Of a stretch of 64,000 bases of DNA, positions 1,461-60,540 are shown in pieces (positions within the stretch are counted from its first letter, which is position 1; the number at the start of each line of letters is the position of its first letter). The DNA comes from a virus: positions 72,643 through 136,642 of IMG/VR virus record IMGVR_UViG_3300025876_000005, one strand, 5' to 3'. Under the pieces are notes generated by a model, which was not told where the DNA came from, made no database searches, and saw nothing but the letters and a program-made list of their open reading frames with translations. The position numbers and the translations under genes were made by a program.

Positions 1461-3905
1461 ATGGCAACAGTAACAATGGACGCAATGGACCCTAAATCAA
1501 AAGGTCTAGCCAAACTACTTAAGAAGAATAAAGTAAAGATGGAGATCTTAACGATGAGAGGCCCTTCAGGCTGGCCTGAGGTTGAACTAACTGGTAAGAG
1601 AGAAGATCTTGAAACAGTTTTAGCCGACGGTGAATATGGTTGGGATGACCCAGAATTAGCTGAGTACATTGAAGAAAGTGCTGATGTTAATGAGGCAAAG
1701 ATCACTCTCAAGAGACGTTACACTGAGAATCATCCAGCAGTTACAGTTGGTAAAGCAGCTCGTATCAGAAATAAAATGCTCGAAGCAATTGCTGACGGAG
1801 CCCTTACTGAAGAAGAGTTTAACAATATCTTAAGCGAATACTCTGCAAACGCAAAACAGTGGATGAAGAGAAACGCTAGATTCTTTAACGTATCTGAAGA
1901 AGGTATTGCACTTTCTAAGTTTGGTAAGAAAGCGCTTTCTGCAGTTGTAGTTAACGAAGAAGAATCAGTTACTGAATCAGAAGCTGAAAACATTTTAGAC
2001 GATCTTTTAGATGAGAGAGGCGGAGATATGGGAGAATTACATGGAATGGAAATGGAAGATGCATTAGATACAGTCGAAGCATACGGACATAAAGGTTCTA
2101 AAGCAAAAAAGATTGCACAGGAATTACATTCTTTATGTAACGAATCAACAGTTACTGAAGCTAAATTCGTAAAAGATTTTAATAGAGATGTTTTAAACGC
2201 GAAAACAAAAGAAGAAGTTTTAGAGCTTTATCCAAACGCTGAATTCTTTATCGGTAAATCAGATCATTTCTTTGGAGAGTTTGATGAAAATTTATTCTTT
2301 AAAGCATACTATACAAAAGGACAAAAAGAATTTGAAATCAAATCAGTTTATTCTGAAAAAGGAAGCAACTATGTTCATTTATACAATGAATCAGTAGTTA
2401 CTGAAAACTATGAAGTTATCTATAGTGATGGTGTAAGTGCTATGAAAAAATTCAGAAATGAAAAACAAGCTCTTGACTTCATGAAGCAAACCATTGCTTC
2501 TAATAAAAAACTAAGGGATATTGCAGTTTACAAACCAGGAATGTATTCAACAACTCAAACTGAATTAGTTGTCTCTTTTTGGGGAAATGGTTCTTACTTA
2601 GACAACGTTTCTAAGAAAGATCCTAAACTAGCGGCTAAAAAATTAGAGGAATCAGAGTATGTTGAAGAAGGTCGTAAGTTTGTAGCTGCTGCCAAGAAAG
2701 CTAAAGATGCTGGTGACGAAGAGTTTGAATTTAACGGCAAGAAGTTCCCGGTGACTATTAAAGAAGGAAATGCATTTGGTGCAGCAAGAGCTAAAGCAAT
2801 TGCTGATGGTAAAGATGAGTTTACAGTTGACGGAGAAACTTACAAGGTAAAATCAGTTGACAAAGAAGACAAAGAGAACGCTGAAGAATTTAAAGGTGAG
2901 TCTTTTATCATCGAGTCTTTCTCTAAGTTTGTAGAAAGCCTTAACGAGTCTGAAATGCTTACAGAAGCATTCAAGTCAATGAAGCTTGCACAACTGCTAA
3001 CACCTAAGAAGAAAACAAACTGGGATAAAGGTCTTGCTCAAGAGTTCTATAACTACACTCAAGTTAAACTAGATAAGGTTGAAGACCACGACCTGTTAGA
3101 AATAGATCCACAGACTGCTTACAAGCAAAAAGGTGGTACTAAAGTAAAGTTCTTCTTAATCGACAACGAAAAGCAGAGTCCTTACACTGACGATAACTCT
3201 GACGGTAGAATCCAACCAGGACTAATTGCAGTCTTAAACGGTAACAATGATTTTATGGGAGCTGTTTATAAAAGATTTAGCAATGAAAAAGGTAGAGTCT
3301 TAACTAAAACTGATAAAGCGGATTCACTTGGTGTTGACAAGAGAAGAAAGGGCTACGGCGCTACTGGACTTTCAAGTGCTAAGAGAATTGCTGACTTTGC
3401 AGATAGAGCAATCGTAATCGATATTGACATCTTAAGACAGAGATATTCAGCTCAACAACAAAAAGATTCAAGAACTGCTGCTAAGAAAGGAGCTATTGCA
3501 TTTAAGACGGACAAAGAGTTTAAAGCTGAGAATATCGCAAGATACAACGAGATCTTAGCTAATAAGGCTGCAGCACTGCCACTTGATAAAATGGTTAAAG
3601 GTGCAATCGACAAACTCGCTGATCAGATTAAAGAAGGTGTAGCTAAAGGCGAAAAAGGACGTTACGGCGACATTATCATTGGTAAAAACTCAAAAGGCCG
3701 CGAAGCTAAAATGAGAGATGCTTCTAACCACATGAGCAATATCCTAGATGACTATGGCAGATATGTACAATATATTGCTGATGGTGAAAAGGAGAAAGAA
3801 GACTGGGGTGAAGAAAACTCATACTACGCTAGAGAGGCAAAAACATATGCTAAGAACATTAAAGACAAGATCAACCAGATTGATACCTTTGATTATGCTT
3901 GGTAA
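1461..3905 (+). CDS. Large modular putative head-internal polyprotein (814 aa)
   Basis: Modules are separated by recurring NES/V-T-E segments resembling gp21 cleavage sites. The N-terminal domain is shared with an insertion in the protease-scaffold gene. GAATATATA late-like motif at 1432. Confidence 0.5.
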   Translation: MATVTMDAMDPKSKGLAKLLKKNKVKMEILTMRGPSGWPEVELTGKREDLETVLADGEYGWDDPELAEYIEESADVNEAKITLKRRYTENHPAVTVGKAARIRNKMLEAIADGALTEEEFNNILSEYSANAKQWMKRNARFFNVSEEGIALSKFGKKALSAVVVNEEESVTESEAENILDDLLDERGGDMGELHGMEMEDALDTVEAYGHKGSKAKKIAQELHSLCNESTVTEAKFVKDFNRDVLNAKTKEEVLELYPNAEFFIGKSDHFFGEFDENLFFKAYYTKGQKEFEIKSVYSEKGSNYVHLYNESVVTENYEVIYSDGVSAMKKFRNEKQALDFMKQTIASNKKLRDIAVYKPGMYSTTQTELVVSFWGNGSYLDNVSKKDPKLAAKKLEESEYVEEGRKFVAAAKKAKDAGDEEFEFNGKKFPVTIKEGNAFGAARAKAIADGKDEFTVDGETYKVKSVDKEDKENAEEFKGESFIIESFSKFVESLNESEMLTEAFKSMKLAQLLTPKKKTNWDKGLAQEFYNYTQVKLDKVEDHDLLEIDPQTAYKQKGGTKVKFFLIDNEKQSPYTDDNSDGRIQPGLIAVLNGNNDFMGAVYKRFSNEKGRVLTKTDKADSLGVDKRRKGYGATGLSSAKRIADFADRAIVIDIDILRQRYSAQQQKDSRTAAKKGAIAFKTDKEFKAENIARYNEILANKAAALPLDKMVKGAIDKLADQIKEGVAKGEKGRYGDIIIGKNSKGREAKMRDASNHMSNILDDYGRYVQYIADGEKEKEDWGEENSYYAREAKTYAKNIKDKINQIDTFDYAW

Positions 3906-4008
3906 ACTTAAAAAAGTATTCTTTGAGTATTGGATTAAACCGTGGTACTCATTGTAATATTTACTATAATAATGTGCATATAAAATTATTAAATAAATCT
4001 AACAAAAA

Positions 4009-4497
4009 ATGAAACATGTAAAATTATTCGAACAATTTCTAAATGAGGATGTTAAAGTTAAAGGTAATATCTCAGAAGAAACAGCTAATGAATTGCTTGA
4101 TTTTCTAAAACGGGCTATCGGTAAAAAATTAAACTGGAAAGAATTTTCAAAATGGCATGGTGGAGCTGCTCAATTAGGTAAAAAATCACCAGCACAAAAA
4201 AAGTTCTTAGAAGCCAATTATGAATGCGAGATTGTAGATGTTACAATGCGCTACTTACCTAAGTATAAAAATGCTCAGTATTCAGTGTCATATCTACAAA
4301 ATACATCATGGCATGGCTCTCCGCATGTCAAAGAAGCGCCACTTTTATTATATAAAGATGATCCTAATTGGACACCAGAGGAAGGCGATACTAAAGATAG
4401 GGCTTTAGAAAAAAGTCTTGAAAGGTACCATGACGAAAGGCAATGGGACAGATTTTCAGATATAACTAGAATAGGTCGATTCACGCCCTATTTATAA
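4009..4497 (+). CDS. Hypothetical protein with capsid-targeting-like N-terminus
   Basis: Starts MKHVKLFEQFLNE; A-rich leader. Confidence 0.6.
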   Translation: MKHVKLFEQFLNEDVKVKGNISEETANELLDFLKRAIGKKLNWKEFSKWHGGAAQLGKKSPAQKKFLEANYECEIVDVTMRYLPKYKNAQYSVSYLQNTSWHGSPHVKEAPLLLYKDDPNWTPEEGDTKDRALEKSLERYHDERQWDRFSDITRIGRFTPYL

Positions 4498-4526
4498 TAG
4501 GTCGATTCGATGTTCATTAATTCAAT

Positions 4527-5285
4527 ATGCCAAGTACTTCAAAAGCACAACAGAGACTAATGGGAATGGCTTACGCTTATAAAAAGGGTGAGCTTGATGC
4601 CAAAGAGGCTAGCCAGGAGGTAAAAGACCTAGCAGACTCTATGACATTAAAGCAGCTTAAGAAGTATGCTGCAACAAAACATGAAGGACTACCAGACAAA
4701 GTGGACGACAATCTTCAACCAGGAGATGTTGGTGGAATGGGACCAATCAAATTCCCAACAGCAACTGAGACCGGTTCTGGTGATGTTCCTGCAGGCCAAG
4801 GCGATGCAGAAGAAGAATATAAAAAGAAACGTAGAAAAATGAAACACTTAAAGAACTTTGAACAGTTTATCAATGAATCTCAATTCGCTGATGATAGTAC
4901 TTCTAATCAAGATGCTAAGTTAAGGCTAAAAGAACGTACAGAACTAACAAAAAAATTAATTAAGGCAACCGGGATTACAACATGGGAAGTAGACTATAGC
5001 CATGGTTTTTTTACCATGAATACAAAGACTAAAGGAAATACCGGAACTGAAATATTTGGAATAAAAGATTTGGATTATAGTTTTACTTGGAGAATTCTTA
5101 ACTCTGACGATTATGAACCATTGGCACCAAAAGAAATGCAGATAGTCGCACAACCAACAGACGGCAGCGGAGGTCGTACCAAACGCAATTGGTATGTAAC
5201 AAAAGGTAATGTTGCTACAATTGATGATGTTATAAAAGCAATGTCAAACTTAGAGGTAGGTAAATCTGGTTGGAAACAAGCATAA
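4527..5285 (+). CDS. DUF3008-like N-terminal domain followed by an internal capsid-targeting motif (possible second start at 4839)
   Basis: MPSTSKAQQRLMGMAYAYKKGE...SMTLKQLKKYAATKHEGLP resembles DUF3008. In-frame ATG at 4839 gives MKHLKNFEQFINE. Confidence 0.55.
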   Translation: MPSTSKAQQRLMGMAYAYKKGELDAKEASQEVKDLADSMTLKQLKKYAATKHEGLPDKVDDNLQPGDVGGMGPIKFPTATETGSGDVPAGQGDAEEEYKKKRRKMKHLKNFEQFINESQFADDSTSNQDAKLRLKERTELTKKLIKATGITTWEVDYSHGFFTMNTKTKGNTGTEIFGIKDLDYSFTWRILNSDDYEPLAPKEMQIVAQPTDGSGGRTKRNWYVTKGNVATIDDVIKAMSNLEVGKSGWKQA

Positions 5286-5302
5286 AACAATAAAATAAAA
5301 AA

Positions 5303-5716
5303 ATGAAACACTTAAAGAACTTTGAATCCTTTCTTAATCCAGGATCTGAAAACGCAGTTTATGAAAAAATAAAATTCGGATCTTACTACTTTAATAAAGG
5401 ACAATTTAGTGAATTCGATCTACCTGCTAAAGGAGAAACTGCATATGCTTTGATTGCACATAATACCGTTGAGGTTAACAAACAATCCATGTATTTAAGA
5501 TCTGAAGGAGATATGAACATTGGTGCTGGATTTAGACCTACGGTACTTGCCGTTGCTGAAGATGAAGCATCGATTAAAGCAGCATATGATACACAACTAA
5601 AAGTTGGAGGAACTGGTGCAAATCTTTCTTTCTCATATGGGACTATTACAGTTAAGGGTAATAATGTACCATTTACAGAGATTGGCGGCCATTTGGCAAA
5701 AGGAAATATAAAATAA
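5303..5716 (+). CDS. Hypothetical protein with capsid-targeting-like N-terminus
   Basis: Starts MKHLKNFESFLN. Confidence 0.6.
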   Translation: MKHLKNFESFLNPGSENAVYEKIKFGSYYFNKGQFSEFDLPAKGETAYALIAHNTVEVNKQSMYLRSEGDMNIGAGFRPTVLAVAEDEASIKAAYDTQLKVGGTGANLSFSYGTITVKGNNVPFTEIGGHLAKGNIK

Positions 5717-5720
5717 AAAA

Positions 5721-6239
5721 ATGAAACATCTAAATAACTTTGAATCTTTCGTAAACGAATCATATGACGGTAACATGTCAGACTTTAAATATGAGTTTCC
5801 AATGAAGTTTGAAGAAGTAACAGGTAATCCAGAAAAAGCTATCAAGAGAATCACTAAGAGCGGTAAAGGTTATGAAGTTAGAACCTCAACTTACATGAGT
5901 GAAGATGAAATGAAAGCTGTTGGTGCTGCAATGAACTTGGATCTAATCAGTTATAACAAAGGTAGCAACGTTGCAATTACAGTTTATGAGTCTAAAGTCA
6001 ACGAAGAATACATTGAACTTCCAAGTCTTGATGTACCTGCAACTGAATTGATTGATGCATTTAGACAATGGTATAAAGACACCGCAGATAACTGGGAAGA
6101 CTTTAAAGAAGACATGGCTGAAGATTCAGTTGATGAAGCAGCTAAGAACGCACAGATGGAAATCTTAGCTCACCTTTCTAATGAGATGAATGACATTATC
6201 AAAGACAGAAAATTTAAGGTTAGAGCAGACTTCAAGTAA
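5721..6239 (+). CDS. Hypothetical protein with capsid-targeting-like N-terminus
   Basis: Starts MKHLNNFESFVNE. Confidence 0.6.
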   Translation: MKHLNNFESFVNESYDGNMSDFKYEFPMKFEEVTGNPEKAIKRITKSGKGYEVRTSTYMSEDEMKAVGAAMNLDLISYNKGSNVAITVYESKVNEEYIELPSLDVPATELIDAFRQWYKDTADNWEDFKEDMAEDSVDEAAKNAQMEILAHLSNEMNDIIKDRKFKVRADFK

Positions 6240-6959: not shown

Positions 6960-6996
6960 AAGCGGGGCAACATCAGAGCGCGTTGCCCCGCTTTTT
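6960..6996 (+). terminator. Intrinsic terminator
   Basis: AGCGGGGCAAC / GTTGCCCCGCT stem followed by a T-run. Confidence 0.8.
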
Positions 6997-7010: not shown

Positions 7011-7036
7011 AAACAAAGTAGTACTTCACCATATAA
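7011..7036 (+). promoter_or_regulatory. Middle-type promoter AAAC-N17-TATAA
   Basis: AAAC at 7011, TATAA at 7032; same spacing at several other intergenic sites. Confidence 0.65.
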
Positions 7037-7051
7037 CATCTAAACAAGAAT

Positions 7052-7384
7052 ATGAGCGATTTAATAGACAACATCTTAGAACAAGCAGACCAAATCATTA
7101 ACCACAGATCAGAAGAAAAGAACCGCCAATACGGTCCTTTCGAAGAAGGCATGCGCAGAGCTGCGATGATCTGTTCTGGTATGACTGGTAAGCAATTCAC
7201 AGGAGCTGACATGTACGCCGCACTTGTTGCTCTTAAACTGAGCAGACACTCTTATAACTACAAGCAAGATAATTTGCTTGATGCTGCAGCTTATATCGGT
7301 GGCCTGGATAACTACATCCAAAAGTACGGCTACAAAGAGACAGAAAAACCACTAGAAACAGGCGACGCAGATGCAGGAATTTAA
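7052..7384 (+). CDS. DUF6378-like / nucleotide-modification-associated helical protein
   Basis: ILEQADQII..R...QYG.F...M..LKLSR......DNLLDAAAY pattern. Confidence 0.6.
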   Translation: MSDLIDNILEQADQIINHRSEEKNRQYGPFEEGMRRAAMICSGMTGKQFTGADMYAALVALKLSRHSYNYKQDNLLDAAAYIGGLDNYIQKYGYKETEKPLETGDADAGI

Positions 7385-8450
7385 GTACTTTACAGATTAT
7401 GAGCAAGACCACTCAATTAAGATTGGTATTGCAGCACTAGTTGGCAAATTAAGCCCAAAGGATAGTTCACATAAGTCCGGCTGGGCTTTCATGCTTTGTA
7501 ATCAACTCTGGCATGCTGGTTTTAAGAATGCTGAAGTTATTACAGAGGTCAACGTGGATTGGTCAGACTATGACGTAATCCTGATTGAACATGGTATGGA
7601 GTTTAAAGGTGCTTTCAATATCTTTGGCGGAGCCAACGATGATCTTTATCATCAGCTTAATCGCCTCTTTGTAGAAGGTGTAAGATTCTACAGTCTACAC
7701 CATGATATGCCAGCTGTTAATGAACTAATTGAGAAACGATTAAAGACCGGTTCAGATCTATTCAAAACGCTTGAGACAAGGATTGACGAGGCTAAAACAA
7801 TATGCAGCCAGATTCCAAGAGTGGACCATATCGAGAAGACAGATAAACTCTGTTTTGGTGATAGCCACTCTTTCAGCCAGTATACACCAGGTTATATGTG
7901 TGATCGCAACGACGGTCTAACACTCTTCGGCACTCTAAAGCGTGGCATGGAAGAATGCGTTTATCCTTGGACTAAAGAACTTAGAGTCTATCTAGGCAAC
8001 ATCGATATTAGACACCACTTAATGCGTCAAAAAGATCCAGAATCTGCATTAGAAGGTTTAATGCAGAACTATGAAGGCGAACTTCTAAGAATGCAGGAAC
8101 GTGGTATAGAAAAGATCGAGATTGTACAGGCTTTACCAATCGAGAATGAGTCTAGAGCCTTACCGAAGACCGGTTATTATAAAGGCACTCCTTTCGCTGG
8201 ATCGTGGGAAGAACGCACTCACCTAGTTAATACCTTTAACTGGTATGTTAATGAGATGGGAGAACGTAATGGCTGGCAAGTATGGAAACACCCTGACGTT
8301 TATCTAAATTCTATTGGCGAATTAGACTTTGAAGTAATGGAAAAACCTAAATCAGTCCATATCGCTAGAAAATATTATAGATGGGATTTAACTAACAATG
8401 TACCTAATTCAAACCTAGAGAGTAGAGTACAATCAAATGCACTTTTTTAA
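7371..8450 (+). CDS. Protein with C-terminal SGNH/GDSL-like domain
   Basis: CFGDSHS block I and YLGNIDIRHH block III-like motifs. Confidence 0.5.
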   Translation: MQEFKYFTDYEQDHSIKIGIAALVGKLSPKDSSHKSGWAFMLCNQLWHAGFKNAEVITEVNVDWSDYDVILIEHGMEFKGAFNIFGGANDDLYHQLNRLFVEGVRFYSLHHDMPAVNELIEKRLKTGSDLFKTLETRIDEAKTICSQIPRVDHIEKTDKLCFGDSHSFSQYTPGYMCDRNDGLTLFGTLKRGMEECVYPWTKELRVYLGNIDIRHHLMRQKDPESALEGLMQNYEGELLRMQERGIEKIEIVQALPIENESRALPKTGYYKGTPFAGSWEERTHLVNTFNWYVNEMGERNGWQVWKHPDVYLNSIGELDFEVMEKPKSVHIARKYYRWDLTNNVPNSNLESRVQSNALF

Positions 8451-9319
8451 TGGAAAATTTAATGGAAAATTTAATGGAAAAACGAAGTATTAATGAAAGA
8501 GTACTTATTACAGTAACGGGTACTTGGGCACCATCACATGCTAAAAATTGGATGGAATGTGAGATGACATGGGTTAGTAAACTAAGAGAAAAGGGCTTTG
8601 ATGTTGTCTATCTGGTGTCAAACCCACACTTAGATAAACCTTACGAAAGAGTTGGTAATTTCTTCTTTGTAAACTGTAAAGATGATCTAGATTCAATCTA
8701 CCTTAAGAATCATTACTACGTCTCACAATATGTGAATAACGATACTGATTATGATTACAGATTTCATACAGATAGTGATACTTTTATTCACCCTGAGCGG
8801 TTTGTCGACCTACTAGAAGAATATGTTGATGAAAATCCTAAAGATTGGGTAGGCTGTACAATACCTTATCCAGGCTTTAATACATGGACTTTAAATAAAT
8901 GTGAAATATTACCCGGAAACTGGAACAATATCTCTTATTTTGCAAGCGGTGGTTCAGGCTTTTTATTGTCAAATAAAGCTATGCAAATACTGGTTGATGA
9001 GCTTGACTACGATTCTTATATTAATAAGACTAATCAAGAACCATGGGGTTCAGATAAATTATGGGCATGTGATCTAATAGCAGGCCACTTCCTCTATAAG
9101 AATGGTATTAACCTATGGCATGATAGCCGAATTCTTTTCGAATCAAAATACCATCCTGTAATGGCTGATCCGCATGGTGTTGGTCGACCCTTCGTGGGTG
9201 ATAGAGACTCATTTATGACCGTTCAACACTATTGCAACGGCCATATGCGTGAAATCATGGAAATGCTCTATGGTAAAGACTGGGATAAAACTAAGATCTA
9301 TCATGGCCATGACCGATAA
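8450..9319 (+). CDS. Glycosyltransferase, GT-A fold (Fringe/GT31-like)
   Basis: RFHTDSDTFI DxD motif and FASGGSGFLLS motif typical of Fringe/galactosyltransferases. Confidence 0.65.
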   Translation: MENLMENLMEKRSINERVLITVTGTWAPSHAKNWMECEMTWVSKLREKGFDVVYLVSNPHLDKPYERVGNFFFVNCKDDLDSIYLKNHYYVSQYVNNDTDYDYRFHTDSDTFIHPERFVDLLEEYVDENPKDWVGCTIPYPGFNTWTLNKCEILPGNWNNISYFASGGSGFLLSNKAMQILVDELDYDSYINKTNQEPWGSDKLWACDLIAGHFLYKNGINLWHDSRILFESKYHPVMADPHGVGRPFVGDRDSFMTVQHYCNGHMREIMEMLYGKDWDKTKIYHGHDR

Positions 9320-9331
9320 CAGAAAGAAGAT

Positions 9332-10540
9332 ATGACTAAAATTAAAACTAATAGATATTACGAAGACTTTCTCTATTACTATCAGAAGGCAAAGGATCAG
9401 CAGAAGAAATGTAATCTAGGCTCTATTCCGCACCCAGAAAGCGGTATGGATGATAGCTTAATGGAGCATGTTGAACTCTACGACGTAGTAGAGCGTAAGT
9501 TGGCAGGTTTTAGTCAGATCAAGAATGATGTATTCTATGGCTGGTCTAAAGAACACCCATACTGGTCAAAGATGCATGCCGGCAATGTCTCAGCTCAGCG
9601 TAAAGAAGTTGCTACCAACTGGACTGGCAAACAGAAAACATTCGGCATGGCCGAATGGTTCTACGTCTTCTTGCTACATGCTGTAACCGGCAGTGGCATT
9701 AACTATGCTAAGAAGCCATCAGGCTACCACAACTCACTGCTTTTTCATCTACATGAATGTGATACAATTGAAGCTATGTGTGAGGTTGTTAAGACACATC
9801 CTAAGCCGTTCTTTACTTCGGTTGGGTATCAATTTCCAAAGTTCCCGAAGCCGCCTAAGGCTGAACCCAGTGGCTTTGTGGGCATGGAGGATTACTCTAC
9901 TCAATTCCAGTATAAAAAAGGTGGCGACTACTACCTATGTGAGTTTGCACCAAGACTGGTTAGAGAGATGGCAGACTGGATCCAGAAAGAGAACCGCAAG
10001 TTTCCACTTAGAGAACTTGGTGAATGGATGTTTGCATGGAATGAGAAGAATGGCCTGAATGCCTACAGATTCCAGTACGCAGCATTCTTGGCAGATATTG
10101 CAGACTTCTACCCAGAGTATATTGAGCTCTACAGTCCATTCTACTATGGCACAAATGCAGTTGAATGTATTAGCTATCTGGCAGATCCGGTAGGTAAGAT
10201 GAACAAGATTGAATTTTTAGACGAAGTGATGCTGCAGATCAACCGAGATACAGGTGGAAGACCATACGACGCAGAAGATGTTGCATGTGATTATATCCGT
10301 TGGGTTGAGAACTACGTGCGGCCTGGTGCAGCATATGACCATCTGGACTATGATAACCTATGGAACTCATCCAATATTAAGGACCATCCATTTGGTAGAC
10401 AGAAAGCAATGCTGGAACTGGGTATTATCGAAACCTTTAACGGTATGAAACACCACCCGTCAGATGATAAAGTTATTGCCGAGGCCGGTATTACAGTAGA
10501 ACAATACAAAAATATGATAAAAGAGCACTATGTCGCATAA
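9332..10540 (+). CDS. Putative amino acid:DNA transferase (aGPT-pyrophosphorylase-like, HhH glycosylase-related fold)
   Basis: FQYAAFLADIADFYP, FYYGTNA and DAEDVACDYIRW resemble aGPT-PPlase/AADT motifs; lies next to a PLP enzyme. Confidence 0.55.
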   Translation: MTKIKTNRYYEDFLYYYQKAKDQQKKCNLGSIPHPESGMDDSLMEHVELYDVVERKLAGFSQIKNDVFYGWSKEHPYWSKMHAGNVSAQRKEVATNWTGKQKTFGMAEWFYVFLLHAVTGSGINYAKKPSGYHNSLLFHLHECDTIEAMCEVVKTHPKPFFTSVGYQFPKFPKPPKAEPSGFVGMEDYSTQFQYKKGGDYYLCEFAPRLVREMADWIQKENRKFPLRELGEWMFAWNEKNGLNAYRFQYAAFLADIADFYPEYIELYSPFYYGTNAVECISYLADPVGKMNKIEFLDEVMLQINRDTGGRPYDAEDVACDYIRWVENYVRPGAAYDHLDYDNLWNSSNIKDHPFGRQKAMLELGIIETFNGMKHHPSDDKVIAEAGITVEQYKNMIKEHYVA

Positions 10541-11426
10541 TAAACACACAGGATTATTAATCAACCAGGATTTAAACTTGATGATGCCTAATCGTCAGGC
10601 TTGGCTAGATCTAGCCGGTGACTGGCAAGATCCGTTTCCAGACCCAATAGTTACAGAGCACAATGGCTTTAATGTAGTTAGAGAGGACATGATGGGCTTT
10701 GGTTCTAAGTGCCGTTTTGGTGACATCTTAGTAAGCACATGTGAAAAAGATACTCTAGTCTATGTACAACCAAGATACGGTTTTGCAGGTATCTCACTTG
10801 CATATCTGGCCAAGAAGTATAACAAGAAGTTAGTTCTATTTAGTCCAAGTCAAAAGGAGATCTCAGACCACCAGGCGATCTGTATTGAACGTGGCGCTGA
10901 GATGAAGTTTAAGCGTATTGCAGCAATGCCAGTCTTAAACGCACATGCTAAAAAATGGGCAGAAGAGAACGATGCTTTCTTTATACCGCTTGGGCTTAAA
11001 CATGAACTAGTAACTGCAGCAGCTGTTAAAGTAGCTTATGATCTTGCAGAGAAGCAAGGCTATCCACAAGAGGTTTGGTCGGCTATTTCAACCGGTGTTC
11101 TACAAAGATCTTTACAGATTGCATGGCCGGATGCAGATTTTCATGGAGTTGCAGTTGCACGTAACATACAGAAAGGCGAAAGAGGTAGAGCTACATTATG
11201 GTCACATCCAAAGGCTTTTACGCAGAATGTTGATGCAGAATTTTACCCTCCCTTTCCATCTGCACTAAACTACGACGCTAAGGCTTGGGAATTCATGCAG
11301 AAGCATGCCAGCCCTGGAGCCTGGTTCTGGAACGTAGGTGGTGACCCAAAGCCAGAAGACTCGATGACCAAAGTAAACACTAATTCTTACAGAGAATGGG
11401 GTCAAGTTTTAACCGAAGACGTGTAA
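10530..11426 (+). CDS. PLP-dependent enzyme, fold type II (Trp synthase beta-like), probable decarboxylase in base modification
   Basis: VVRED...GSKCR (PLP lysine), GFAGISLAY, STGVL, YDAKAW and WNVG motifs. Confidence 0.7.
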   Translation: MSHNKHTGLLINQDLNLMMPNRQAWLDLAGDWQDPFPDPIVTEHNGFNVVREDMMGFGSKCRFGDILVSTCEKDTLVYVQPRYGFAGISLAYLAKKYNKKLVLFSPSQKEISDHQAICIERGAEMKFKRIAAMPVLNAHAKKWAEENDAFFIPLGLKHELVTAAAVKVAYDLAEKQGYPQEVWSAISTGVLQRSLQIAWPDADFHGVAVARNIQKGERGRATLWSHPKAFTQNVDAEFYPPFPSALNYDAKAWEFMQKHASPGAWFWNVGGDPKPEDSMTKVNTNSYREWGQVLTEDV

Positions 11427-11465
11427 ACAAAAGAGGATTAATCTATAATACTACAAAGAAATAAT

Positions 11466-11930
11466 ATGGCAAACACAGATAATAAATGTTCGGATCTTGA
11501 CGTGGCAGATTTCCACTCAAATGCAGATGACACCTTTGGCTTAATCTTTAACAAGCAGAAAGAATTACAAGAGCGTCTTGGCTTTAATTTTGAAGGCTGG
11601 ACAATCAAAGAAATCGCTGACTTTTGGATGGTTAACAAACATGCATTAAGTGACGAACTCAACGAGATGTTTGATGCCCTAGGCGGTATCAACGACGGTA
11701 TTGGTAACGCAGGCTGGAAGTATTGGAAGCAAGACAATGCAAAAGCTGCTAACATGAAAATTGAAGATCTATCCGAAGCAGACAAATTAGAACTCTTTTA
11801 TGAATGGATTGACGGATTACATTTTTACATGAACTTTGCAATAGCAATTGGTATGACTAGTAAAGATGTTGTTAATCTATACATGGCGAAGAACGCAGAG
11901 AATCACGACAGACAAGAAAGAGGCTACTAA
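11466..11930 (+). CDS. Dimeric all-alpha dUTPase (dUTPase_2/MazG-like)
   Basis: ELNEMFD, WKYWK, EWIDGLHF and Y..KN.EN..RQ..GY motifs. Confidence 0.8.
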   Translation: MANTDNKCSDLDVADFHSNADDTFGLIFNKQKELQERLGFNFEGWTIKEIADFWMVNKHALSDELNEMFDALGGINDGIGNAGWKYWKQDNAKAANMKIEDLSEADKLELFYEWIDGLHFYMNFAIAIGMTSKDVVNLYMAKNAENHDRQERGY

Positions 11931-11950: not shown

Positions 11951-13354
11951 ATGCTATTAGACATTGAGCAGAAAGAAAATGAAGTAATCGTCAGCTACTA
12001 CGATAAGAAAGGCGAAGTTTCATTTAAACGCTATCGCGTAGATAACTTTGAGAATTGGACAGTAGCTGAAGATAACGACAGATACAGAGACCAAAACTTT
12101 AAAAACTGGGACGGCAGAGCAATCAAACGCAAACGCTCAAGAACTTACAACAAATTCAGTCTACTCTATTTTATGGACTCTCTGCCTGAAGCAGATAGAG
12201 AAGAGATCTTTGCATTCAACATGCCAAGAACATACTATGTCGATATTGAGACTGAGATTGTAGATGGCTTTCCAAGACCAGAAGAGGCTAAGAGTCGTAT
12301 CTTAACTTTTTCGATCATTACACCAGAACGTAAAGCAATTGTACTTGGTCTAGATGACTTGAATGCAGAACAGATCAAGAAGATTGAAGATGACACTAAC
12401 GCTCACTTCAAGAACTACGATCAAGACTGGACTTTTAGCTACTACAAGTTTAAGAATGAGTATGATATGCTCTATAACTTCTTGCACAAGTTCTTGCCTA
12501 AGTTTCCAATGATGACCGGCTGGAACTTTATCAACTATGACTGGCAATATATTGTTAATCGCTGTAAGAGGCTACAGATTGATCTAACTGAAGTTGCAAT
12601 CACAGGAGCACTAGACAAAAAAGACTCAAGACCATTACACATGGGTATTCTTGACTATATGCAGCTCTATGATAAGTATGATCGTTCGGTTGCGGTAAAA
12701 GAGTCTAACAAACTTGACTTTGTGTCAAGCCAAGTCTTGAATGTGGCCAAGATTAAATACACAGGTTCACTGCAAGATCTTTACGAGAACAACTTTCAAA
12801 AATATGTTTACTATAACGTAGTTGACTCTGTGTTGGTTTATTATATTGACCAACAGTTAAAGTCAATGGAAGTCCTACTGACCTTATCAACTATTACTAA
12901 AATGCCACTCTATAAAGCAGCCAGCCCCGTTGCAGTAACAGAGTCTTTAATTGCAAGAAAGCTTGCAGAAGACAACGTTAAGATCGGCGTTGAGTATGAC
13001 AAAGAGGACAGTAAGAAAGACGGTCAGTATGAAGGTGCTTTTGTAAAACAACCAATTGTTGGTTATTACTCAGGAGTAAGTGCATTTGACTTTGCATCAC
13101 TGTACCCATCGGTGATGAGGCAGTTTAATATCTCGCCGGATGCTTTCATTGAAATTGTACCGGAAGCTGAAATTGCCGAGCGCAGAAAAGATAATAACGT
13201 AATCGTTTGCGAGAACGGAGTTGTCTATAAAAAGGAAGATTCAATCCTAAAAAAGATCCTCAGCGATCTATATGCACAAAGAAAGGAATACAAGAAGGCT
13301 TCATATGCTTATTATGAAAAAGCACATGAACTTCAAAAAAAATTTAGGCTCTAA
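11951..13354 (+). CDS. gp43: Family-B DNA polymerase, N-terminal part (3'-5' exonuclease, motif A, first finger helix); gp43A-like
   Basis: YVDIETE, GWNFINYD, YNVVDS, YEGAFV and DFASLYPS are present; the ORF ends after LYAQRKEYK without motifs B and C. Confidence 0.9.
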   Translation: MLLDIEQKENEVIVSYYDKKGEVSFKRYRVDNFENWTVAEDNDRYRDQNFKNWDGRAIKRKRSRTYNKFSLLYFMDSLPEADREEIFAFNMPRTYYVDIETEIVDGFPRPEEAKSRILTFSIITPERKAIVLGLDDLNAEQIKKIEDDTNAHFKNYDQDWTFSYYKFKNEYDMLYNFLHKFLPKFPMMTGWNFINYDWQYIVNRCKRLQIDLTEVAITGALDKKDSRPLHMGILDYMQLYDKYDRSVAVKESNKLDFVSSQVLNVAKIKYTGSLQDLYENNFQKYVYYNVVDSVLVYYIDQQLKSMEVLLTLSTITKMPLYKAASPVAVTESLIARKLAEDNVKIGVEYDKEDSKKDGQYEGAFVKQPIVGYYSGVSAFDFASLYPSVMRQFNISPDAFIEIVPEAEIAERRKDNNVIVCENGVVYKKEDSILKKILSDLYAQRKEYKKASYAYYEKAHELQKKFRL

Positions 13355-17273: not shown

Positions 17274-18482
17274 ATGGATATAAAAGAGTTAGAAAATAAA
17301 CCAATAGATCAATTGACTGATGCTGACGCTAAGCTGCTTGTAGATCACTACAAGCAGCTTTCAGCAAAGTATACAGCTTATGAGCAGGCGGTTAAGTTAA
17401 CTCTTAACTCGATCTACGGAGCCTTTGGTAACAAATGGTTTCACTTCTTCAATATCGACATTGCAGAGTCAATTACAAAACAGGGTAAGAATGCTATTCT
17501 CTACTCAGAGTCAATCTTGAACAAATATGTTCAAGAATTTTGGCATAAAGACACTGCAGTTCACGAGCAATTCGGTATTAAAGTAAAGGGTAAAATAGAG
17601 AAGCCAGCTGTAATCTACATCGATACTGACTCATGTTACGTTCAGTTTCAAGATGTTTATGAGTCTATCATCTGGGAAGATGAAAGTAAGAAGATGTCAA
17701 TTGACGAGTTTATCTTAGCACTTTATGGCTTTAGACTTAATAATTATATTGTTAAGTGTATGGAGATGTACGCTGAGAAACGTAATACTGATAACTTCTT
17801 AATGTTTGAGCTTGAGACTATTGCATATAATGGTATCTGGATGAGCAAGAAGAAGTACATTCAGAATATTGCATGGGACGATAAACTAGAGAAGACCGAT
17901 CGACATGCGCCTCTGAAAAAGATTAAGACGATTGGATATGATACTATTCAATCTTCAACACCAGCATTTGTAAGAGCAAAACTAGTTGAAGCACTTAAAA
18001 TTATATTTAAGAGCGCTAAAACACCAAGTGCTGAAGAATTACAAGAACTTGTTCAATTCATGAAGCAGGTCAGAAAAGAGTTCCAGCTTGCAGATATTGA
18101 CGAGATCTCATTTAACAGAAGGACAAACAATATTGAGAAATATATTGTTGACGACCAGATTGAATTTCAAGTTGGTCTAAAATGTCCGGCCAATGTTAAA
18201 GCAGCAGGTTACTACAACTACCTGCTTAATATGAACTCTAAATTTAAAACAAAGTATAAAGTAATTGGTAACGGTGAGAAGCTAAAGATCTACAACTGTA
18301 AGAGTCCAATCAGTGAAGTTTATGCCTATCTACCAGGTGAACATCCTTATGAGTTTGCACCAGAGATAGACTACGACACTCAGTTTGAAAAGGCAATGAT
18401 TGACCCGTTAAACAGAGTACTTACAGCAATCGGTCTACAGACACTTGACACTAATCTACTTTATGCATCAGCACTATTTTAA
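17274..18482 (+). CDS. gp43: Family-B DNA polymerase, C-terminal part (second finger helix, palm, thumb); gp43B-like
   Basis: KLTLNSIYGAFG (motif B), YIDTDS (motif C) and KKKY. Confidence 0.9.
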   Translation: MDIKELENKPIDQLTDADAKLLVDHYKQLSAKYTAYEQAVKLTLNSIYGAFGNKWFHFFNIDIAESITKQGKNAILYSESILNKYVQEFWHKDTAVHEQFGIKVKGKIEKPAVIYIDTDSCYVQFQDVYESIIWEDESKKMSIDEFILALYGFRLNNYIVKCMEMYAEKRNTDNFLMFELETIAYNGIWMSKKKYIQNIAWDDKLEKTDRHAPLKKIKTIGYDTIQSSTPAFVRAKLVEALKIIFKSAKTPSAEELQELVQFMKQVRKEFQLADIDEISFNRRTNNIEKYIVDDQIEFQVGLKCPANVKAAGYYNYLLNMNSKFKTKYKVIGNGEKLKIYNCKSPISEVYAYLPGEHPYEFAPEIDYDTQFEKAMIDPLNRVLTAIGLQTLDTNLLYASALF

Positions 18483-55975: not shown

Positions 55976-56203
55976 ATGATAACGAGCACAATTTCACATT
56001 ACGATTCATCTACGGTCAAGTCAGCAGCTTACAATGTTGAGCATAAGACTCTAACTGTACATTTCAACCATGCGTCTTACTTTTATAAAGACGTTGAATT
56101 AGCAGACTGGAATCTTTTCAATATGGCAGACTCACAAGGCAGAGCCTTGAACGAGATTATTAAGCCTAACTATGAATTTGAGAAAATACAAGAGACTGTA
56201 TAA
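55976..56203 (+). CDS. KTSC domain protein
   Basis: SSTVKSAAYN....TLTVHF....Y.Y..V.......F..A.S.GR; AAAC-N17-TATAA at 55933. Confidence 0.85.
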   Translation: MITSTISHYDSSTVKSAAYNVEHKTLTVHFNHASYFYKDVELADWNLFNMADSQGRALNEIIKPNYEFEKIQETV

Positions 56204-57201
56204 TGGAACTAGGACCTAACAATAAGAATGTGCTGGTCAAGGTTTCTTGTCCAGCACTTGGTGATACATTATGTTCAACACCTACTATTAAAAAGGTAGC
56301 ACTTACATATGGCCATAAAGTTGATGTAATGACACACATGCCAGAGATCTTTAAGAATAGTCCTTATGTAGACAATATTATTCCTTATAATGAAGAATGG
56401 CCGGGTGAATATAAAGAGATCTTTGAGACATATAACCAGTGGCTGAAGACTAATTATGGGCTAGGTAGTGATAACTTCTATAATCAATCGATGGAAGTAA
56501 AGCTACATAACTTTGAAGCTCGTCAGTTACATGCAATGGGCGTCGGTATGTATTTGTATCCTGAAGAGTTAACATGTGAGTTTATTCCAGATCCAATTAC
56601 TGAAAGAGCTAGTAAGATAGACAAGAACTATCTAGTCTTTCACGTTACTGAGAATTGGCCTTCAAGAACATGGAATATTCAGAAGTGGCAGCGTATGGTT
56701 GACCTTGTAAAGAAACATACAGACTTTAAGATTGTAACTATTGGCATGAGCCATAAAGAGGCTACATTTAATGGTCATTTAGATAAGAAGACTATCAAGT
56801 TGGAAGGTATAGATCTAGATTACTGTGACTTAGATGGTAGTACTATTAGTGAACTTTGGCATATAATCAATAGCTCATATGGTTTAGTTACTTTTGATGC
56901 TGGTCCAATACATGTTGCAGGAACAACAGACTCAGAGATCTTTACAATAGGTTCTTCTATTCTCCCTAAAAAGTTTGCACCTTGGAGAAATTCAAGCCAA
57001 GATTATAAATTTCACTTTATTGGCGGTGAATGTAAAATCTTTTGTGCGTCAGAGCCAAAGTACTCAGTTAAAGAATGGGGTACTATCAACTCAATCCATT
57101 ATGTACCAGAATGTGCCGAAGGTTACCCTGAGTTTAAGTGTCAGCCATCGCCGGACCAAGTATTAATGAAAATATTAGAAGTTAAAAATGAATCAAGATA
57201 A
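56203..57201 (+). CDS. Glycosyltransferase family 9-like (GT-B)
   Basis: ALGDTLCSTP, RTWNIQKW and VTFDAGPIHVAG. Confidence 0.8.
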   Translation: MELGPNNKNVLVKVSCPALGDTLCSTPTIKKVALTYGHKVDVMTHMPEIFKNSPYVDNIIPYNEEWPGEYKEIFETYNQWLKTNYGLGSDNFYNQSMEVKLHNFEARQLHAMGVGMYLYPEELTCEFIPDPITERASKIDKNYLVFHVTENWPSRTWNIQKWQRMVDLVKKHTDFKIVTIGMSHKEATFNGHLDKKTIKLEGIDLDYCDLDGSTISELWHIINSSYGLVTFDAGPIHVAGTTDSEIFTIGSSILPKKFAPWRNSSQDYKFHFIGGECKIFCASEPKYSVKEWGTINSIHYVPECAEGYPEFKCQPSPDQVLMKILEVKNESR

Positions 57202-58372
57202 GAAATTTCTATTAGTAACATCATTCTATAATAACCCACAAGAACACTTTGAACTTACTGTTAAGAATGTACTTAATCAGACTTACCAGAATTGGGTTTT
57301 AATCATTGGCGATGACTTTAGTGCAGATCCAGAATACAGAACCTGGCTTAAGAATGAGATCTTAAAGGTCAATGACCCGAGAATTATGTACTATGATGTG
57401 AAGGAGAAGCGAGAACTCTATCTCTATCAGAACTTCTTTCAACACCTAGACTATGATTACTATTTTGATCTAGACTCGGATGATCTGATTGACCCTAATA
57501 TTCTACAGACGTATCACAACCACTTCGATGCATATCCAGATGCCATGAGTGTATTTAGTGATTCAACGATGACCAATGTTGAAGGTCAATTACAACAGTA
57601 CTTCTTTGTCAAGCCACCTAAAGATTATGTTGCTGAGTTTAACTATCGTTCTACTAATGATGTTAACCAGCTCTGGAAAGACAGATCTTCTTATAATATG
57701 TATGGCCATGCTAGATGTATGCGCAGACCAACCGAAAGTGCTATGCACATGAATAAGAATACTAGAACCTCAACGGACACTCTGTTTACATTCTATAATC
57801 TGACTCGAGGCAAACACCTACATATACCAAGAAGGATGTATACTTATGTACGCAGAGATGGTTCAGATTCAGGCCGGATGTCAGCTGAAGAATATGCTGA
57901 TTTTAACATGAACGCAAGTTACTATATTAACAAGTATGCTAACATGGAACCAACCGGCCACATTCCAGTCTACGACCATCTTTACAATTACACATCGGCC
58001 ATTTCAGCTTGTAAATTCTTAGACTCTGTGGATCGAGTAAGCCTTATTGCAGACATATCTGATGCAGACCAAGTGCTGATTAAGACAATTTACCACGACA
58101 AGACTATTCTCTTCAATGATTATAGCTGTCCAAATATAATTGTGCCCTGGAAAGAGTTAGCAGAAAGTAGCAGAGAACGACTTTTGGCAAACCTGAGCAC
58201 ATTTGATCGAGTTACAATATACAACCATGTTGAAGGTGAATTTGACAATATGGAAGATGCTAGCAACCATTTCAATGCAGATCACCAGAAAGTACTTGAT
58301 ACTATCAAGGGTAAGATGTTTGGCTATGGCTGGTGGTACTTCTTTAGACACATGACGGTTACAAAACAGTAA
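57188..58372 (+). CDS. Glycosyltransferase family 2-like (GT-A)
   Basis: TSFYN, VLNQTYQNW...DDFS and LDSDD. Confidence 0.8.
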   Translation: MNQDKKFLLVTSFYNNPQEHFELTVKNVLNQTYQNWVLIIGDDFSADPEYRTWLKNEILKVNDPRIMYYDVKEKRELYLYQNFFQHLDYDYYFDLDSDDLIDPNILQTYHNHFDAYPDAMSVFSDSTMTNVEGQLQQYFFVKPPKDYVAEFNYRSTNDVNQLWKDRSSYNMYGHARCMRRPTESAMHMNKNTRTSTDTLFTFYNLTRGKHLHIPRRMYTYVRRDGSDSGRMSAEEYADFNMNASYYINKYANMEPTGHIPVYDHLYNYTSAISACKFLDSVDRVSLIADISDADQVLIKTIYHDKTILFNDYSCPNIIVPWKELAESSRERLLANLSTFDRVTIYNHVEGEFDNMEDASNHFNADHQKVLDTIKGKMFGYGWWYFFRHMTVTKQ

Positions 58373-60066: not shown

Positions 60067-60540
60067 ATGAAATTAGTACTCGTAGGCAAAGCAGCATCTG
60101 GTAAAGACTATCTTAAGACTCGATTAAAGAAGAAGGGTTTTAAGATAGGTGTTAGCCATACTACAAGGCCACCTCGACCATCTGAAACAGATGGTGTTGA
60201 TTATCGCTTTACAGACGAAGCCACCTTTAAACAGATGATCGAAAAAGATCAGTTTGTAGAATACATGCACTTTAACGGCTGGTACTATGGCCAGACTAAA
60301 GAAGACTTCACACACGCAGAAGTTATGATTATGAGCAAAGATGGCCTAGACATTTTACCGGAACAATACCGTAAAGAATGTATGGTGATCTACTTAGATA
60401 TTGACCGTAAGACTAGAGTTGAAAGACTTAATCTGAGAGAAGACCCAAATGATTCAGTTGAACGGCGTTTACTCGCAGACGACGAACAGTTTAAAGGCTT
60501 CAACGACTTTGAAATCCGCATTACTAACCCAGATTTTTAA
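60067..60540 (+). CDS. gmk: Guanylate kinase-like
   Basis: GKAASGKD, SHTTRPPR..E.DGVDY.F and YYG; AAAC-N17-TATAA at 60034. Confidence 0.85.
   Translation: MKLVLVGKAASGKDYLKTRLKKKGFKIGVSHTTRPPRPSETDGVDYRFTDEATFKQMIEKDQFVEYMHFNGWYYGQTKEDFTHAEVMIMSKDGLDILPEQYRKECMVIYLDIDRKTRVERLNLREDPNDSVERRLLADDEQFKGFNDFEIRITNPDF

What the first reader, a model, noticed from the sequence alone, without database searches (positions are those of the whole stretch)
7052..11930. Probable DNA hypermodification operon with an unusual mix of enzymes
Seen in sequence: one tightly coupled unit under a middle-type promoter encoding DUF6378-like, SGNH-like, Fringe-like glycosyltransferase, aGPT-PPlase/AADT-like, fold-II PLP enzyme and dimeric dUTPase genes, directly upstream of the polymerase. 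Established: in phages ViI and M6, an amino acid:DNA transferase acts on phosphorylated 5-hydroxymethyluracil and a PLP decarboxylase trims the adduct. Inference: a related pathway with added glycosyl and acyl steps could give a new modified base. No 5hmU kinase or dUMP hydroxymethylase is visible in this window, so the substrate is unproven.
Basis: partly seen in the sequence, partly recalled or inferred. Interest (0 to 1): 0.7.

Follow-up and report, generated by a model that had tools for sequence, protein, structure and literature searches.

The report
Phage hydroxymethylcytosine modification cassette with glycosyltransferase
An uncultured T4-like phage carries, beside its DNA polymerase, a widespread gene set distantly related to the enzymes that attach amino acids to thymine in other phages' DNA, but here it is tied to hydroxymethylcytosine, has an acyltransferase-like partner in place of the usual DNA kinase, and has a rare added sugar-transfer gene, so its DNA probably carries an undescribed cytosine modification.

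Summary
The substrate is probably not 5hmU. The genome's one thymidylate-synthase homologue (outside the window) is T4 gp42-like, with the dCMP-specific Asp. The 'dUTPase' is closest to T4 gp56 dCTPase among the enzymes compared. In 24 distant lineages, 101 of 102 neighbouring TS homologues carry the full dCMP-hydroxymethylase signature (one is truncated) and none is the dUMP type. No 5-HMUDK kinase was found in 24 cassette-bearing genomes, six of them at least 90% complete.

The conserved core is SGNH-like + AADT-like + PLP, and the first two are often fused. The SGNH protein has a weakly BGT-like N-terminal domain. Best reading (inferred, no chemistry shown): it O-acylates 5hmC, the Cys/Glu transferase swaps in an amino acid, and the PLP enzyme decarboxylates it.

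The Fringe-like gene is a rare insertion (1 of 65 contigs) and is absent from a 98%-identical phage. Its relatives mostly lie beside 7-deazaguanine DNA-modification genes.

The parts
6960..6996 (+). Intrinsic-terminator-like hairpin (12-bp stem, T run) that closes the upstream unit
   Evidence: -22.4 kcal/mol, z -5.1, 0 of 200 shuffles fold as well
7011..7036 (+). Candidate non-late promoter, AAAC-N17-TATAA
   Evidence: same motif before DUF6378 in many relatives; count in window not above chance
7052..7384 (+). DUF6378 protein (110 aa); function untested, travels with the cassette
   Evidence: Pfam E 1.3e-10; 58 related loci
7371..8450 (+). Two-domain protein (359 aa): weakly T4-BGT-like N-domain plus SGNH domain with Ser165, Gly182, Asn210, His330; proposed 5hmC O-acyltransferase
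   Evidence: fold Z 13.4; invariant residues; N-domain against BGT hhalign prob 45%, E 2e-4; fused to the AADT-like domain in 7 of 8 long homologues
8450..9319 (+). GT31/Fringe-like GT-A glycosyltransferase (DxD at 108-110); accessory insertion
   Evidence: 1 of 65 contigs and absent in L011; relatives beside DpdA-like/Que genes
9332..10540 (+). HhH-fold aGPT-PPlase/AADT-like protein (402 aa), a divergent clade with invariant Glu315 and Cys319
10530..11426 (+). Fold-II PLP enzyme (298 aa), same PHROG family as M6 gp52; invariant Lys60
   Evidence: phrog_7093 E 1e-41; M6 gp52 in phrog_7093; HMM hit to gp52 E 6e-6
11466..11930 (+). Dimeric dUTPase-family enzyme, T4 gp56-like dCTPase/dUTPase (154 aa)
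   Evidence: 30% identity to T4 gp56, E 8e-22; phrog_173 shared with gp56
11951..13354 (+). Family B DNA polymerase, exonuclease and N-terminal part
60067..60540 (+). Guanylate-kinase-like protein; candidate dNMP kinase for 5hm-dCMP (inference)
   Evidence: Pfam Guanylate_kin E 2e-18

Best explanation
This is a post-replicative hypermodification pathway for 5-hydroxymethylcytosine (5hmC) in phage DNA. Step 1, precursor (strong inference from T4): the dCMP hydroxymethylase at G000:155708-156544 makes 5hm-dCMP, the gp56-like enzyme (11466) removes dCTP/dUTP, and a dNMP kinase and PolB put 5hmC into DNA. Step 2, activation (inferred, about 40%): the 7371 protein binds the flipped 5hmC through its BGT-like N-domain and its SGNH Ser165/His330 site O-acylates the hydroxymethyl group, giving the leaving group that the kinase gives in M6 and ViI. 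Step 3, transfer (inferred from fold and motif, about 65%): the 9332 protein adds Cys319 to C6, expels the acyl group with help from Glu315, and an amino acid attacks the exocyclic methylene. Step 4, trimming (inferred from family membership with M6 gp52, about 60%): the PLP enzyme decarboxylates the adduct to an aminoalkyl-type cytosine. The GT31 enzyme is an optional add-on that probably sugars some 5hmC or the product (about 55% that it acts on DNA at all). Shown here: gene content, folds, conserved residues, linkage and the dCMP signature. Not shown: any chemistry.
For: TS homologue: best PDB hit is T4 dCMP hydroxymethylase, E 6e-19. It has Asp138, Cys141, Asp164 and Asp172 at the T4 D145/C148/D171/D179 columns, which by the published diagnostics (PMC13326640: N177D gives dCMP, L143D/E gives hydroxymethyl, D169N gives 5hoC) reads as a 5hm-dCMP synthase. 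Across 163 distant loci in 38 clusters at 70% identity, 24 clusters have an adjacent TS homologue; 101 of 102 read D-C-D-D, one is truncated, and none has the Asn of the M6/PaMx11 dUMP hydroxymethylases. SGNH is found in 33 of 38 and PLP in 34 of 38 clusters; the misses are mostly contig ends. Seven of eight long AADT-like homologues are SGNH-AADT fusions. PF18748 kinase is absent from 24 cassette genomes, six of them at least 90% complete, while the M6 and ViI controls ring. AADT-like fold: top hit PaMx11 gp46; atlas TM 0.72 to a cluster carrying HMUDK_hel and 0.59 to an 'amino acid:DNA transferase' cluster. Glu315 and Cys319 are 100% conserved in 52 diverse homologues and are spaced like gp46 Glu243/Cys247 (PMC11472151; the Cys and Glu are essential in M6 gp51 and ViI gp247, PMC8989533). 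Ser165 and His330 are 100% conserved in 46 diverse SGNH homologues.
Against: The 9332 protein has no sequence-level link to proven AADTs, and its fold score (Z 8.8) is tied with DNA glycosylases and a nucleoside glycosylase. The SGNH block V lacks the usual DxxH Asp (it reads KSVH), and SGNH folds include hydrolases as well as transferases. The BGT likeness of the N-domain is weak (prob 45%). A small thymidylate-kinase-type P-loop protein lies near the TS gene in 15 of 38 clusters and weakly resembles 5-HMUDK (E 2e-4 to 6e-3), so phosphorylation is not excluded. G000 is only about 59% complete. In G000 the hydroxymethylase lies about 71 kb from the cassette. No acyl donor is identified.
Confidence: 0.55

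Rival explanations
1. Same 5hmC substrate, different order. An unrecognised kinase phosphorylates 5hmC in DNA, the AADT-like enzyme adds the amino acid, the PLP enzyme decarboxylates it, and the SGNH protein acts last by acylating the amine (as PaMx11 gp48 acetylates 5-aminomethyl-U) or by hydrolysing an ester.
For: A thymidylate-kinase-type neighbour occurs in 15 of 38 clusters with faint likeness to 5-HMUDK. About 41% of the G000 genome is missing. All proven AADTs need the phosphate (PMC8989533).
Against: Those kinases score as Thymidylate_kin and not HMUDK_HMUD1, which fits a dNMP kinase for the modified nucleotide. None was found in the 176 kb of G000 or near the cassette in the 80 close loci. 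Aeromonas phage 31 has the SGNH protein fused to an aGPT-like domain, and no PLP homologue was found in Aeromonas phages, which fits an SGNH role upstream of the transferase.
Confidence: 0.22
2. The HhH protein is not an amino-acid transferase but a glycosylase or base-exchange enzyme, and the PLP and SGNH enzymes make a small-molecule donor off DNA (for example O-acylation followed by PLP beta-replacement, as in cysteine synthases).
For: The fold score is tied with AGOG and the queuine salvage glycosylase. There is no sequence homology to proven AADTs. Fold-II PLP enzymes commonly do beta-elimination or replacement (established knowledge).
Against: The invariant ExxxC is spaced as in AADTs. 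The nearest atlas clusters are aGPT-PPlase-type. The PLP enzyme is in the M6 gp52 family, which acts on DNA (PMC8989533).
Confidence: 0.12
3. One reading: an M6/ViI-type thymidine pathway on phosphorylated 5hmU, with added glycosyl and acyl steps.
For: AADT-like fold and a gp52-family PLP enzyme. A dCMP deaminase is present in the genome. The genome is incomplete.
Against: None of 102 linked TS homologues is of the dUMP-hydroxymethylase type. Two related genomes carry a canonical thyA besides the dCMP-type enzyme, which implies normal T. No 5-HMUDK was found. The GT gene is accessory.
Confidence: 0.04
4. Concerns the GT31 gene only: it is a passenger that glycosylates virion proteins or host surface glycans and has no part in DNA chemistry.
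For: Characterised GT31/Fringe enzymes extend glycans on proteins (one search hits). The gene is dispensable. One homologue lies outside any modification cluster. The genome has other GT2 and GT9 genes. I found no mention of Fringe or GT31 in the phage DNA-GT study.
Against: In this lineage it is translationally coupled between the two core genes. Relatives at 50-57% identity sit directly before a DpdA-like gene and queC/queD/queE/folE in four contigs, and before the same 267-aa gene in a fifth that ends early. GT-A enzymes can sugar 5hmC in DNA (10.1101/2023.12.21.572611).
Confidence: 0.4

Closest known systems
Thymidine hypermodification of Pseudomonas phage M6 (gp51 AADT, gp52 PLP decarboxylase, gp53 rSAM, gp54 5-HMUDK) and Salmonella phage ViI (gp247, gp226, gp243); PMC8989533
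   Same: HhH-fold transferase-like enzyme with ExxxC next to a fold-II PLP enzyme of the gp52 family; a TS-family hydroxymethylase supplies the handle
   Different: Linked hydroxymethylase is dCMP-type, not dUMP-type; no 5-HMUDK found; an obligate BGT-like/SGNH partner; transferase has no detectable sequence similarity to gp51 or gp247; no rSAM gene in the unit
PaMx11 gp46-gp49 (AADT/PUGT, flavin lyase, GNAT acetyltransferase, kinase); PDB 8Z2M, PMC11472151
   Same: Best structural match of the 9332 model (Z 8.8); a pathway that also includes an acyl step
   Different: The acyl enzyme here has an SGNH fold, not GNAT; no flavin enzyme or kinase; cytosine-linked
T-even glucosyl-5hmC system (gp42, gp56, gp1, alpha-/beta-glucosyltransferase)
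   Same: gp42-type dCMP hydroxymethylase and gp56-type dCTPase; faint likeness of the 7371 N-domain to BGT
   Different: No intact AGT or BGT found; the BGT-like half is joined to an SGNH domain; the only GT in the unit is a GT-A Fringe-like enzyme
5hmC carbamoyltransferase (5cmdC; PMC8670742) and phage GT-A/GT-B 5hmC glycosyltransferases (10.1101/2023.12.21.572611)
   Same: O-linked groups added to 5hmC in phages with N177D TS homologues
   Different: Those are single-step O-carbamoylation or glycosylation with unrelated folds; no transferase or PLP step
Aeromonas phages 44RR2.8t, 31 and 25 (e.g. PHG31ORF233c, 795 aa)
   Same: Homologous BGT-like/SGNH module (34% identity; structural TM 0.80 by query), fused to a domain with ExxxC and a weak PF18723 hit; gp42 and gp56 present and no glucosyltransferases (PMC2993671)
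   Different: The C-terminal domain is not detectably similar to the 9332 clade; no PLP homologue found; their modification was stated as unknown in PMC2993671

Membership tests
Clade 2 aGPT-PPlase / AADT (PF18724) | Match to the ADDT profile or to proven members by sequence | tested here: not met
   No Pfam hit; no tblastn hit in phages; deep HMM and hhalign against gp46, gp51 and gp247 not significant
Clade 2 aGPT-PPlase / AADT (PF18724) | HhH glycosylase-like two-bundle fold as in PaMx11 gp46 | tested here: met
   Z 8.8, rmsd 4.0 A, 208 aligned, top of 48,161 chains but tied with AGOG and QNG1; atlas TM 0.72 and 0.59 to aGPT-type clusters
Clade 2 aGPT-PPlase / AADT (PF18724) | Catalytic Cys with Glu four residues before it | tested here: met
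   E315 and C319 invariant, spaced like gp46 E243/C247; residue-level superposition not inspected
Clade 2 aGPT-PPlase / AADT (PF18724) | Transfers an amino acid or amine to activated 5-hydroxymethylpyrimidine in DNA | not testable with these tools
   Needs an enzyme assay
M6/ViI thymidine hypermodification system | dUMP hydroxymethylase (Asn at ThyA 177) | tested here: not met
   G000 enzyme and all 102 linked TS homologues have Asp; M6 gp58 and PaMx11 gp51 have Asn. G000 is 59% complete.
M6/ViI thymidine hypermodification system | 5-HMUDK P-loop DNA kinase (PF18748) | tested here: not met
   0 of 24 cassette genomes including six at least 90% complete; controls ring; none in G000 six-frame
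M6/ViI thymidine hypermodification system | Fold-II PLP enzyme of the gp52 type | tested here: met
   phrog_7093; Lys60 aligns with the gp52 Lys
T4-type 5hmC precursor pathway | dCMP hydroxymethylase with D145/C148/D171/D179 equivalents | tested here: met
   G000:155708-156544
T4-type 5hmC precursor pathway | gp56-type dCTPase | tested here: met
   30% identity to gp56, E 8e-22; dCTP specificity not assayed
5-hydroxycytosine (RB69/DLP3) pathway | D169N in the TS homologue | tested here: not met
   Asp retained (Asp164) in G000 and in all linked homologues (diagnostic from PMC13326640)
SGNH hydrolase/acyltransferase superfamily | SGNH fold with Ser, Gly, Asn and His of blocks I, II, III and V | tested here: met
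   Z 13.4; S165, N210 and H330 conserved, G182 invariant in close homologues
SGNH hydrolase/acyltransferase superfamily | DxxH acid in block V | tested here: not met
   Block V reads KSVH; a conserved E324 lies six residues before the His
T4 beta-glucosyltransferase (GT-B) | Two Rossmann domains with a UDP-glucose-binding C-domain | tested here: not met
   The C-domain is SGNH; only the N-domain resembles BGT, weakly
GT31 / Fringe-like GT-A | Profile match with DxD and GGxG motifs | tested here: met
   Pfam below cut-off for the window protein, above cut-off for a relative; profile hits Manic Fringe and B3GNT2; D108, D110 and SGG invariant

The most novel reading that the evidence does not exclude
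A kinase-free route to hypermodified DNA. A hybrid of a glucosyltransferase acceptor domain and an SGNH acyltransferase esterifies 5hmC in DNA, a new AADT clade displaces the ester with an amino acid at cytosine C5, and a PLP enzyme decarboxylates it, giving an amino-acid-derived cytosine for which I found no published account. In this lineage a Fringe-like enzyme, shared with 7-deazaguanine cassettes, adds a sugar branch.
Probability: 0.35. Interest if true: 0.85.

Novelty: new variant of a known kind. Interest (0 to 1): 0.66.

Why it matters
In the papers I could read, amino-acid:DNA transferases act on thymine after a kinase step. This cassette suggests the same chemistry on cytosine with a different activation. 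It is common: 936 homologues of the transferase at 90% clustering and 377 viral-contig stretches from a single motif, next to both PolB and PolA polymerases. If confirmed, it would be a widespread, unrecognised base in environmental phage DNA, relevant to restriction and CRISPR evasion and to sequencing bias. It would also give new enzymes for labelling 5hmC. The homologous module in cultured Aeromonas phages 44RR2.8t, 31 and 25 makes a question raised in PMC2993671 (what covers their 5hmC without glucosyltransferases) directly testable.

Tried and rejected
Sequence searches for the 9332 protein found nothing in Pfam, PHROGs, NCBIfam, PDB sequences or cultured phages. Foldseek on PDB gave no match at E <= 0.001, only weak HhH glycosylases. 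hhalign against gp46/gp51 and gp50/gp55 was not significant. PF18723 and PF18724 on the whole genome gave nothing credible.

A 5-HMUDK HMM on G000 gave only a hit on a GT2 protein (E 0.0035), which I took as spurious. The AAA_33 kinase (G000:7838) and the guanylate kinase do not match 5-HMUDK. The sigma-70 promoter scan was at chance level, 19 against 21.7.

Complex prediction for the SGNH and AADT-like proteins gave no verdict (score 0.00) and is not used as evidence either way. The atlas feature search for the SGNH N-domain gave no hit, and whole-protein hhalign to BGT was not significant. The ENA and JGI contigs carrying GT31 relatives could not be searched for a hydroxymethylase. The genome-contig scan failed for lack of a conserved stretch. 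Iyer et al. 2013 was not available under the id I tried, so I cannot exclude that it lists this clade. Literature searches for SGNH + hydroxymethylcytosine + phage and for Aeromonas phage hypermodification returned no papers; the library lacks most subscription journals.


Full report
Setting. The window is bases 72,643-136,642 of a 176,489-base linear virus record, about 59% complete by CheckV. Its gene content is T4-like (PolB, nrdA/B, and clamp-, helicase- and capsid-like genes; the last three recognised by eye).

Observation. A strong hairpin with a T run at 6960-6996 closes the upstream unit. An AAAC-N17-TATAA motif at 7011-7036 recurs before the same gene in many relatives and differs from the GATATATA motif, 23 of whose 32 sites lie just before ORF starts. 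The count of the first motif is not above chance, so the promoter rests on conservation only.

The proteins. The 7052 protein is DUF6378, the 8450 protein is GT31/Fringe-like, the 10530 protein is a fold-II PLP enzyme, and the 11466 protein is a dimeric dUTPase-family enzyme. The PLP enzyme falls in the same PHROG as M6 gp52, a proven DNA decarboxylase, and keeps the PLP lysine (PMC8989533). The 11466 protein is 30% identical to T4 gp56 dCTPase. The 7371 model has an SGNH C-domain (Z 13.4) with Ser165 and His330 invariant over 46 diverse homologues, but without the DxxH acid. Its N-domain aligns weakly with the N-domain of T4 BGT, including an NxFGG loop (prob 45%, E 2e-4). I took that lead from earlier scan notes and tested it here.

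The 9332 protein. It has no sequence match to any described family or to M6 gp51, ViI gp247 or PaMx11 gp46. Its model (pLDDT 88) has the HhH glycosylase fold. The top solved match is PaMx11 gp46 at Z 8.8, tied with AGOG and the queuine salvage enzyme, and the nearest atlas clusters are aGPT-PPlase-type (TM 0.72). Glu315 and Cys319 are invariant and are spaced like the catalytic Glu243/Cys247 of gp46 (PMC11472151). It therefore looks like an AADT but is not a member of PF18724: a separate clade of the superfamily, with 165 representatives at 50% clustering.

Core and accessory genes. In 65 distinct IMG/VR contigs that show the whole stretch (68 loci, three of them duplicates), the order SGNH - AADT-like - PLP is constant. 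The slots between the core genes take different passengers: a paralogue of the AADT-like gene (33 loci; hhalign E 4e-5), a LOG-family gene (17), a CitG-like gene (3), a cytidylyltransferase (1), and GT31 (1 contig, plus two partial contigs and two ENA/Logan contigs). L011 is 98-100% identical to the window in the flanking proteins but lacks GT31, and its SGNH gene differs in patches, most of all in the 3' third (72-89% DNA identity per 90 bases). GT31 also has the lowest G+C of the unit (0.36). The GT gene is therefore accessory and has been gained or lost by recombination among close relatives. No GT31 was found in 163 distant loci.

Substrate. G000 has one TS-family gene, outside the window at 155,708-156,544. 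Its best solved match is T4 dCMP hydroxymethylase (E 6e-19). It has Asp at the ThyA 143 and 177 positions and keeps Asp at 169, which by PMC13326640 means a 5hm-dCMP synthase and not a dUMP or 5-hydroxy-dCMP enzyme. Related genomes have the same enzyme, and two also have a canonical thyA. In the distant set (38 clusters at 70% identity), 24 clusters have a TS homologue beside the cassette. Of these 102 proteins, 101 read D-C-D-D and one is truncated; none reads D-C-D-N as M6 gp58 and PaMx11 gp51 do. These counts include many near-copies, so the figure that matters is 24 of 24 clusters, which are themselves related. The substrate is most likely 5hmC.

Kinase. PF18748 rings in M6 and ViI but in none of 24 cassette genomes, six of them at least 90% complete, and an HMM of three 5-HMUDKs finds nothing credible in G000. 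One caveat: a thymidylate-kinase-type protein lies near the TS gene in 15 clusters and faintly resembles 5-HMUDK. A dNMP kinase role is simpler, but a DNA kinase role is not excluded. The SGNH protein, in contrast, is found in 33 of 38 clusters and is fused to the transferase in seven of eight long homologues. In Aeromonas phage 31 it is fused to a different aGPT-like domain; these phages have gp42 and gp56 but no glucosyltransferase (PMC2993671).

Mechanism (inferred). Proven AADTs need a leaving group on the hydroxymethyl carbon (PMC8989533). Here the kinase is missing and a Ser/His acyl-enzyme fold, joined to a domain resembling the 5hmC acceptor half of BGT, is always present. The simplest reading is O-acylation as the activation, Cys/Glu-driven exchange for an amino acid, and PLP decarboxylation. 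I put 5hmC hypermodification of some kind at about 80% and this exact order at about 35-40%. The rivals are a hidden kinase with SGNH acting last, glycosylase-type chemistry, and the 5hmU version, which the data argue against.

The glycosyltransferase. Its relatives at 50-57% identity lie directly before a DpdA-like gene (atlas feature hits 0.95-0.97 to TGT/DpdA clusters) and queC, queD, queE and folE. One such cluster sits just upstream of PolB and another includes a carbamoyltransferase. One relative lies elsewhere. Its presence in two chemically different modification cassettes hints that it acts on DNA, perhaps on a shared 5hmC, but it may only mark a recombination hotspot. I give about 55% for a DNA role.

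Novelty. I found no paper on AADT-type chemistry at cytosine or on SGNH proteins in DNA modification, within the limits of the library. Earlier agents of this scan reached the same 5hmC, kinase-less reading on other genomes; those are AI notes and are not counted as support. My own 5hmC reading was recorded before I looked. Verdict: a real cassette and a new variant of a known kind of system, interest 0.66.

Noticed in passing
L112:7001-14744; L113:7001-14738; L119; L132:7995-15492: Related phages carry a 7-deazaguanine cassette (DpdA-like, queC, queD, queE, folE, PRTase, MazG-like) headed by the GT31 homologue. In L112 it lies just upstream of PolB; L113 also has a carbamoyltransferase. The slot before the polymerase may be a swappable DNA-modification island.
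   Followed up: partly
L008:2326-4764; L009:8387-10705; L087-L095: The same PLP family occurs without the SGNH and AADT-like genes: inside an 812-aa protein annotated as a DNA methyltransferase in Erythrobacter phage ZS04 (similar in R6L), after two ParB genes in Microcystis phage Mae-JY30, and before a 530-aa protein with an SPPY motif in T4-like contigs. This may be another PLP-dependent DNA modification.
   Followed up: no
L007:8031-10418 (Aeromonas phage 31 ORF233c): 795-aa fusion of the BGT-like/SGNH module to an aGPT-like domain in 38 Aeromonas and 2 Stenotrophomonas phage records, plus a stand-alone copy in Tenacibaculum phages such as PTm1. These are cultured test systems.
   Followed up: partly
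L073:1140-2264 and 35 other loci: A second, divergent AADT-like paralogue (about 370 aa, EDxxC motif) sits between the transferase and PLP genes in about half of the close relatives; it is absent from this window.
   Followed up: partly
L055:4871-5668; L064:7325-7999; L038:3187-3672; L080:4414-5334: Other passengers of the cassette: CitG-like, LOG-family, cytidylyltransferase, and an NDP-sugar dehydratase-like gene in place of DUF6378.
   Followed up: partly
window 8450-8485: A 12-nt tandem duplication gives three in-frame ATGs at the start of the GT31 gene; relatives begin at the equivalent of the third.
   Followed up: no
window 7731-8450 and 9338-10040: Patchy DNA identity (72-100%) to near-identical phages inside the SGNH and AADT-like genes, while dCTPase, PolB and nrd are 98-100% identical as proteins; this suggests repeated recombination in the cassette.
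   Followed up: partly
window 11951-13354 and 17274-18482: PolB looks split: the 467-aa gene covers the exonuclease and the start of the polymerase domain, and a conserved 402-aa gene after the clamp-like gene may be the rest (not tested).
   Followed up: no
window 56203-58372; L005:2038-4733: Further glycosyltransferase-type genes: a GT9 and GT2 pair in the window, and a DUF2827 and GT2 group near the end of the contig.
   Followed up: no
L004:12026-12430; L194, L196, L200, L211, L216: A stand-alone UDG-superfamily gene in G000. In distant cassette loci a thymidylate-kinase-type domain carries a C-terminal extension that is UDG-like in the one tested (L196).
   Followed up: partly
window 1461-6239 and elsewhere in G000: Several genes begin with an MKH-x-x-x-FE-x-F-type leader, and a GATATATA motif precedes 23 ORFs, mostly structural-looking; a candidate late promoter.
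   Followed up: partly
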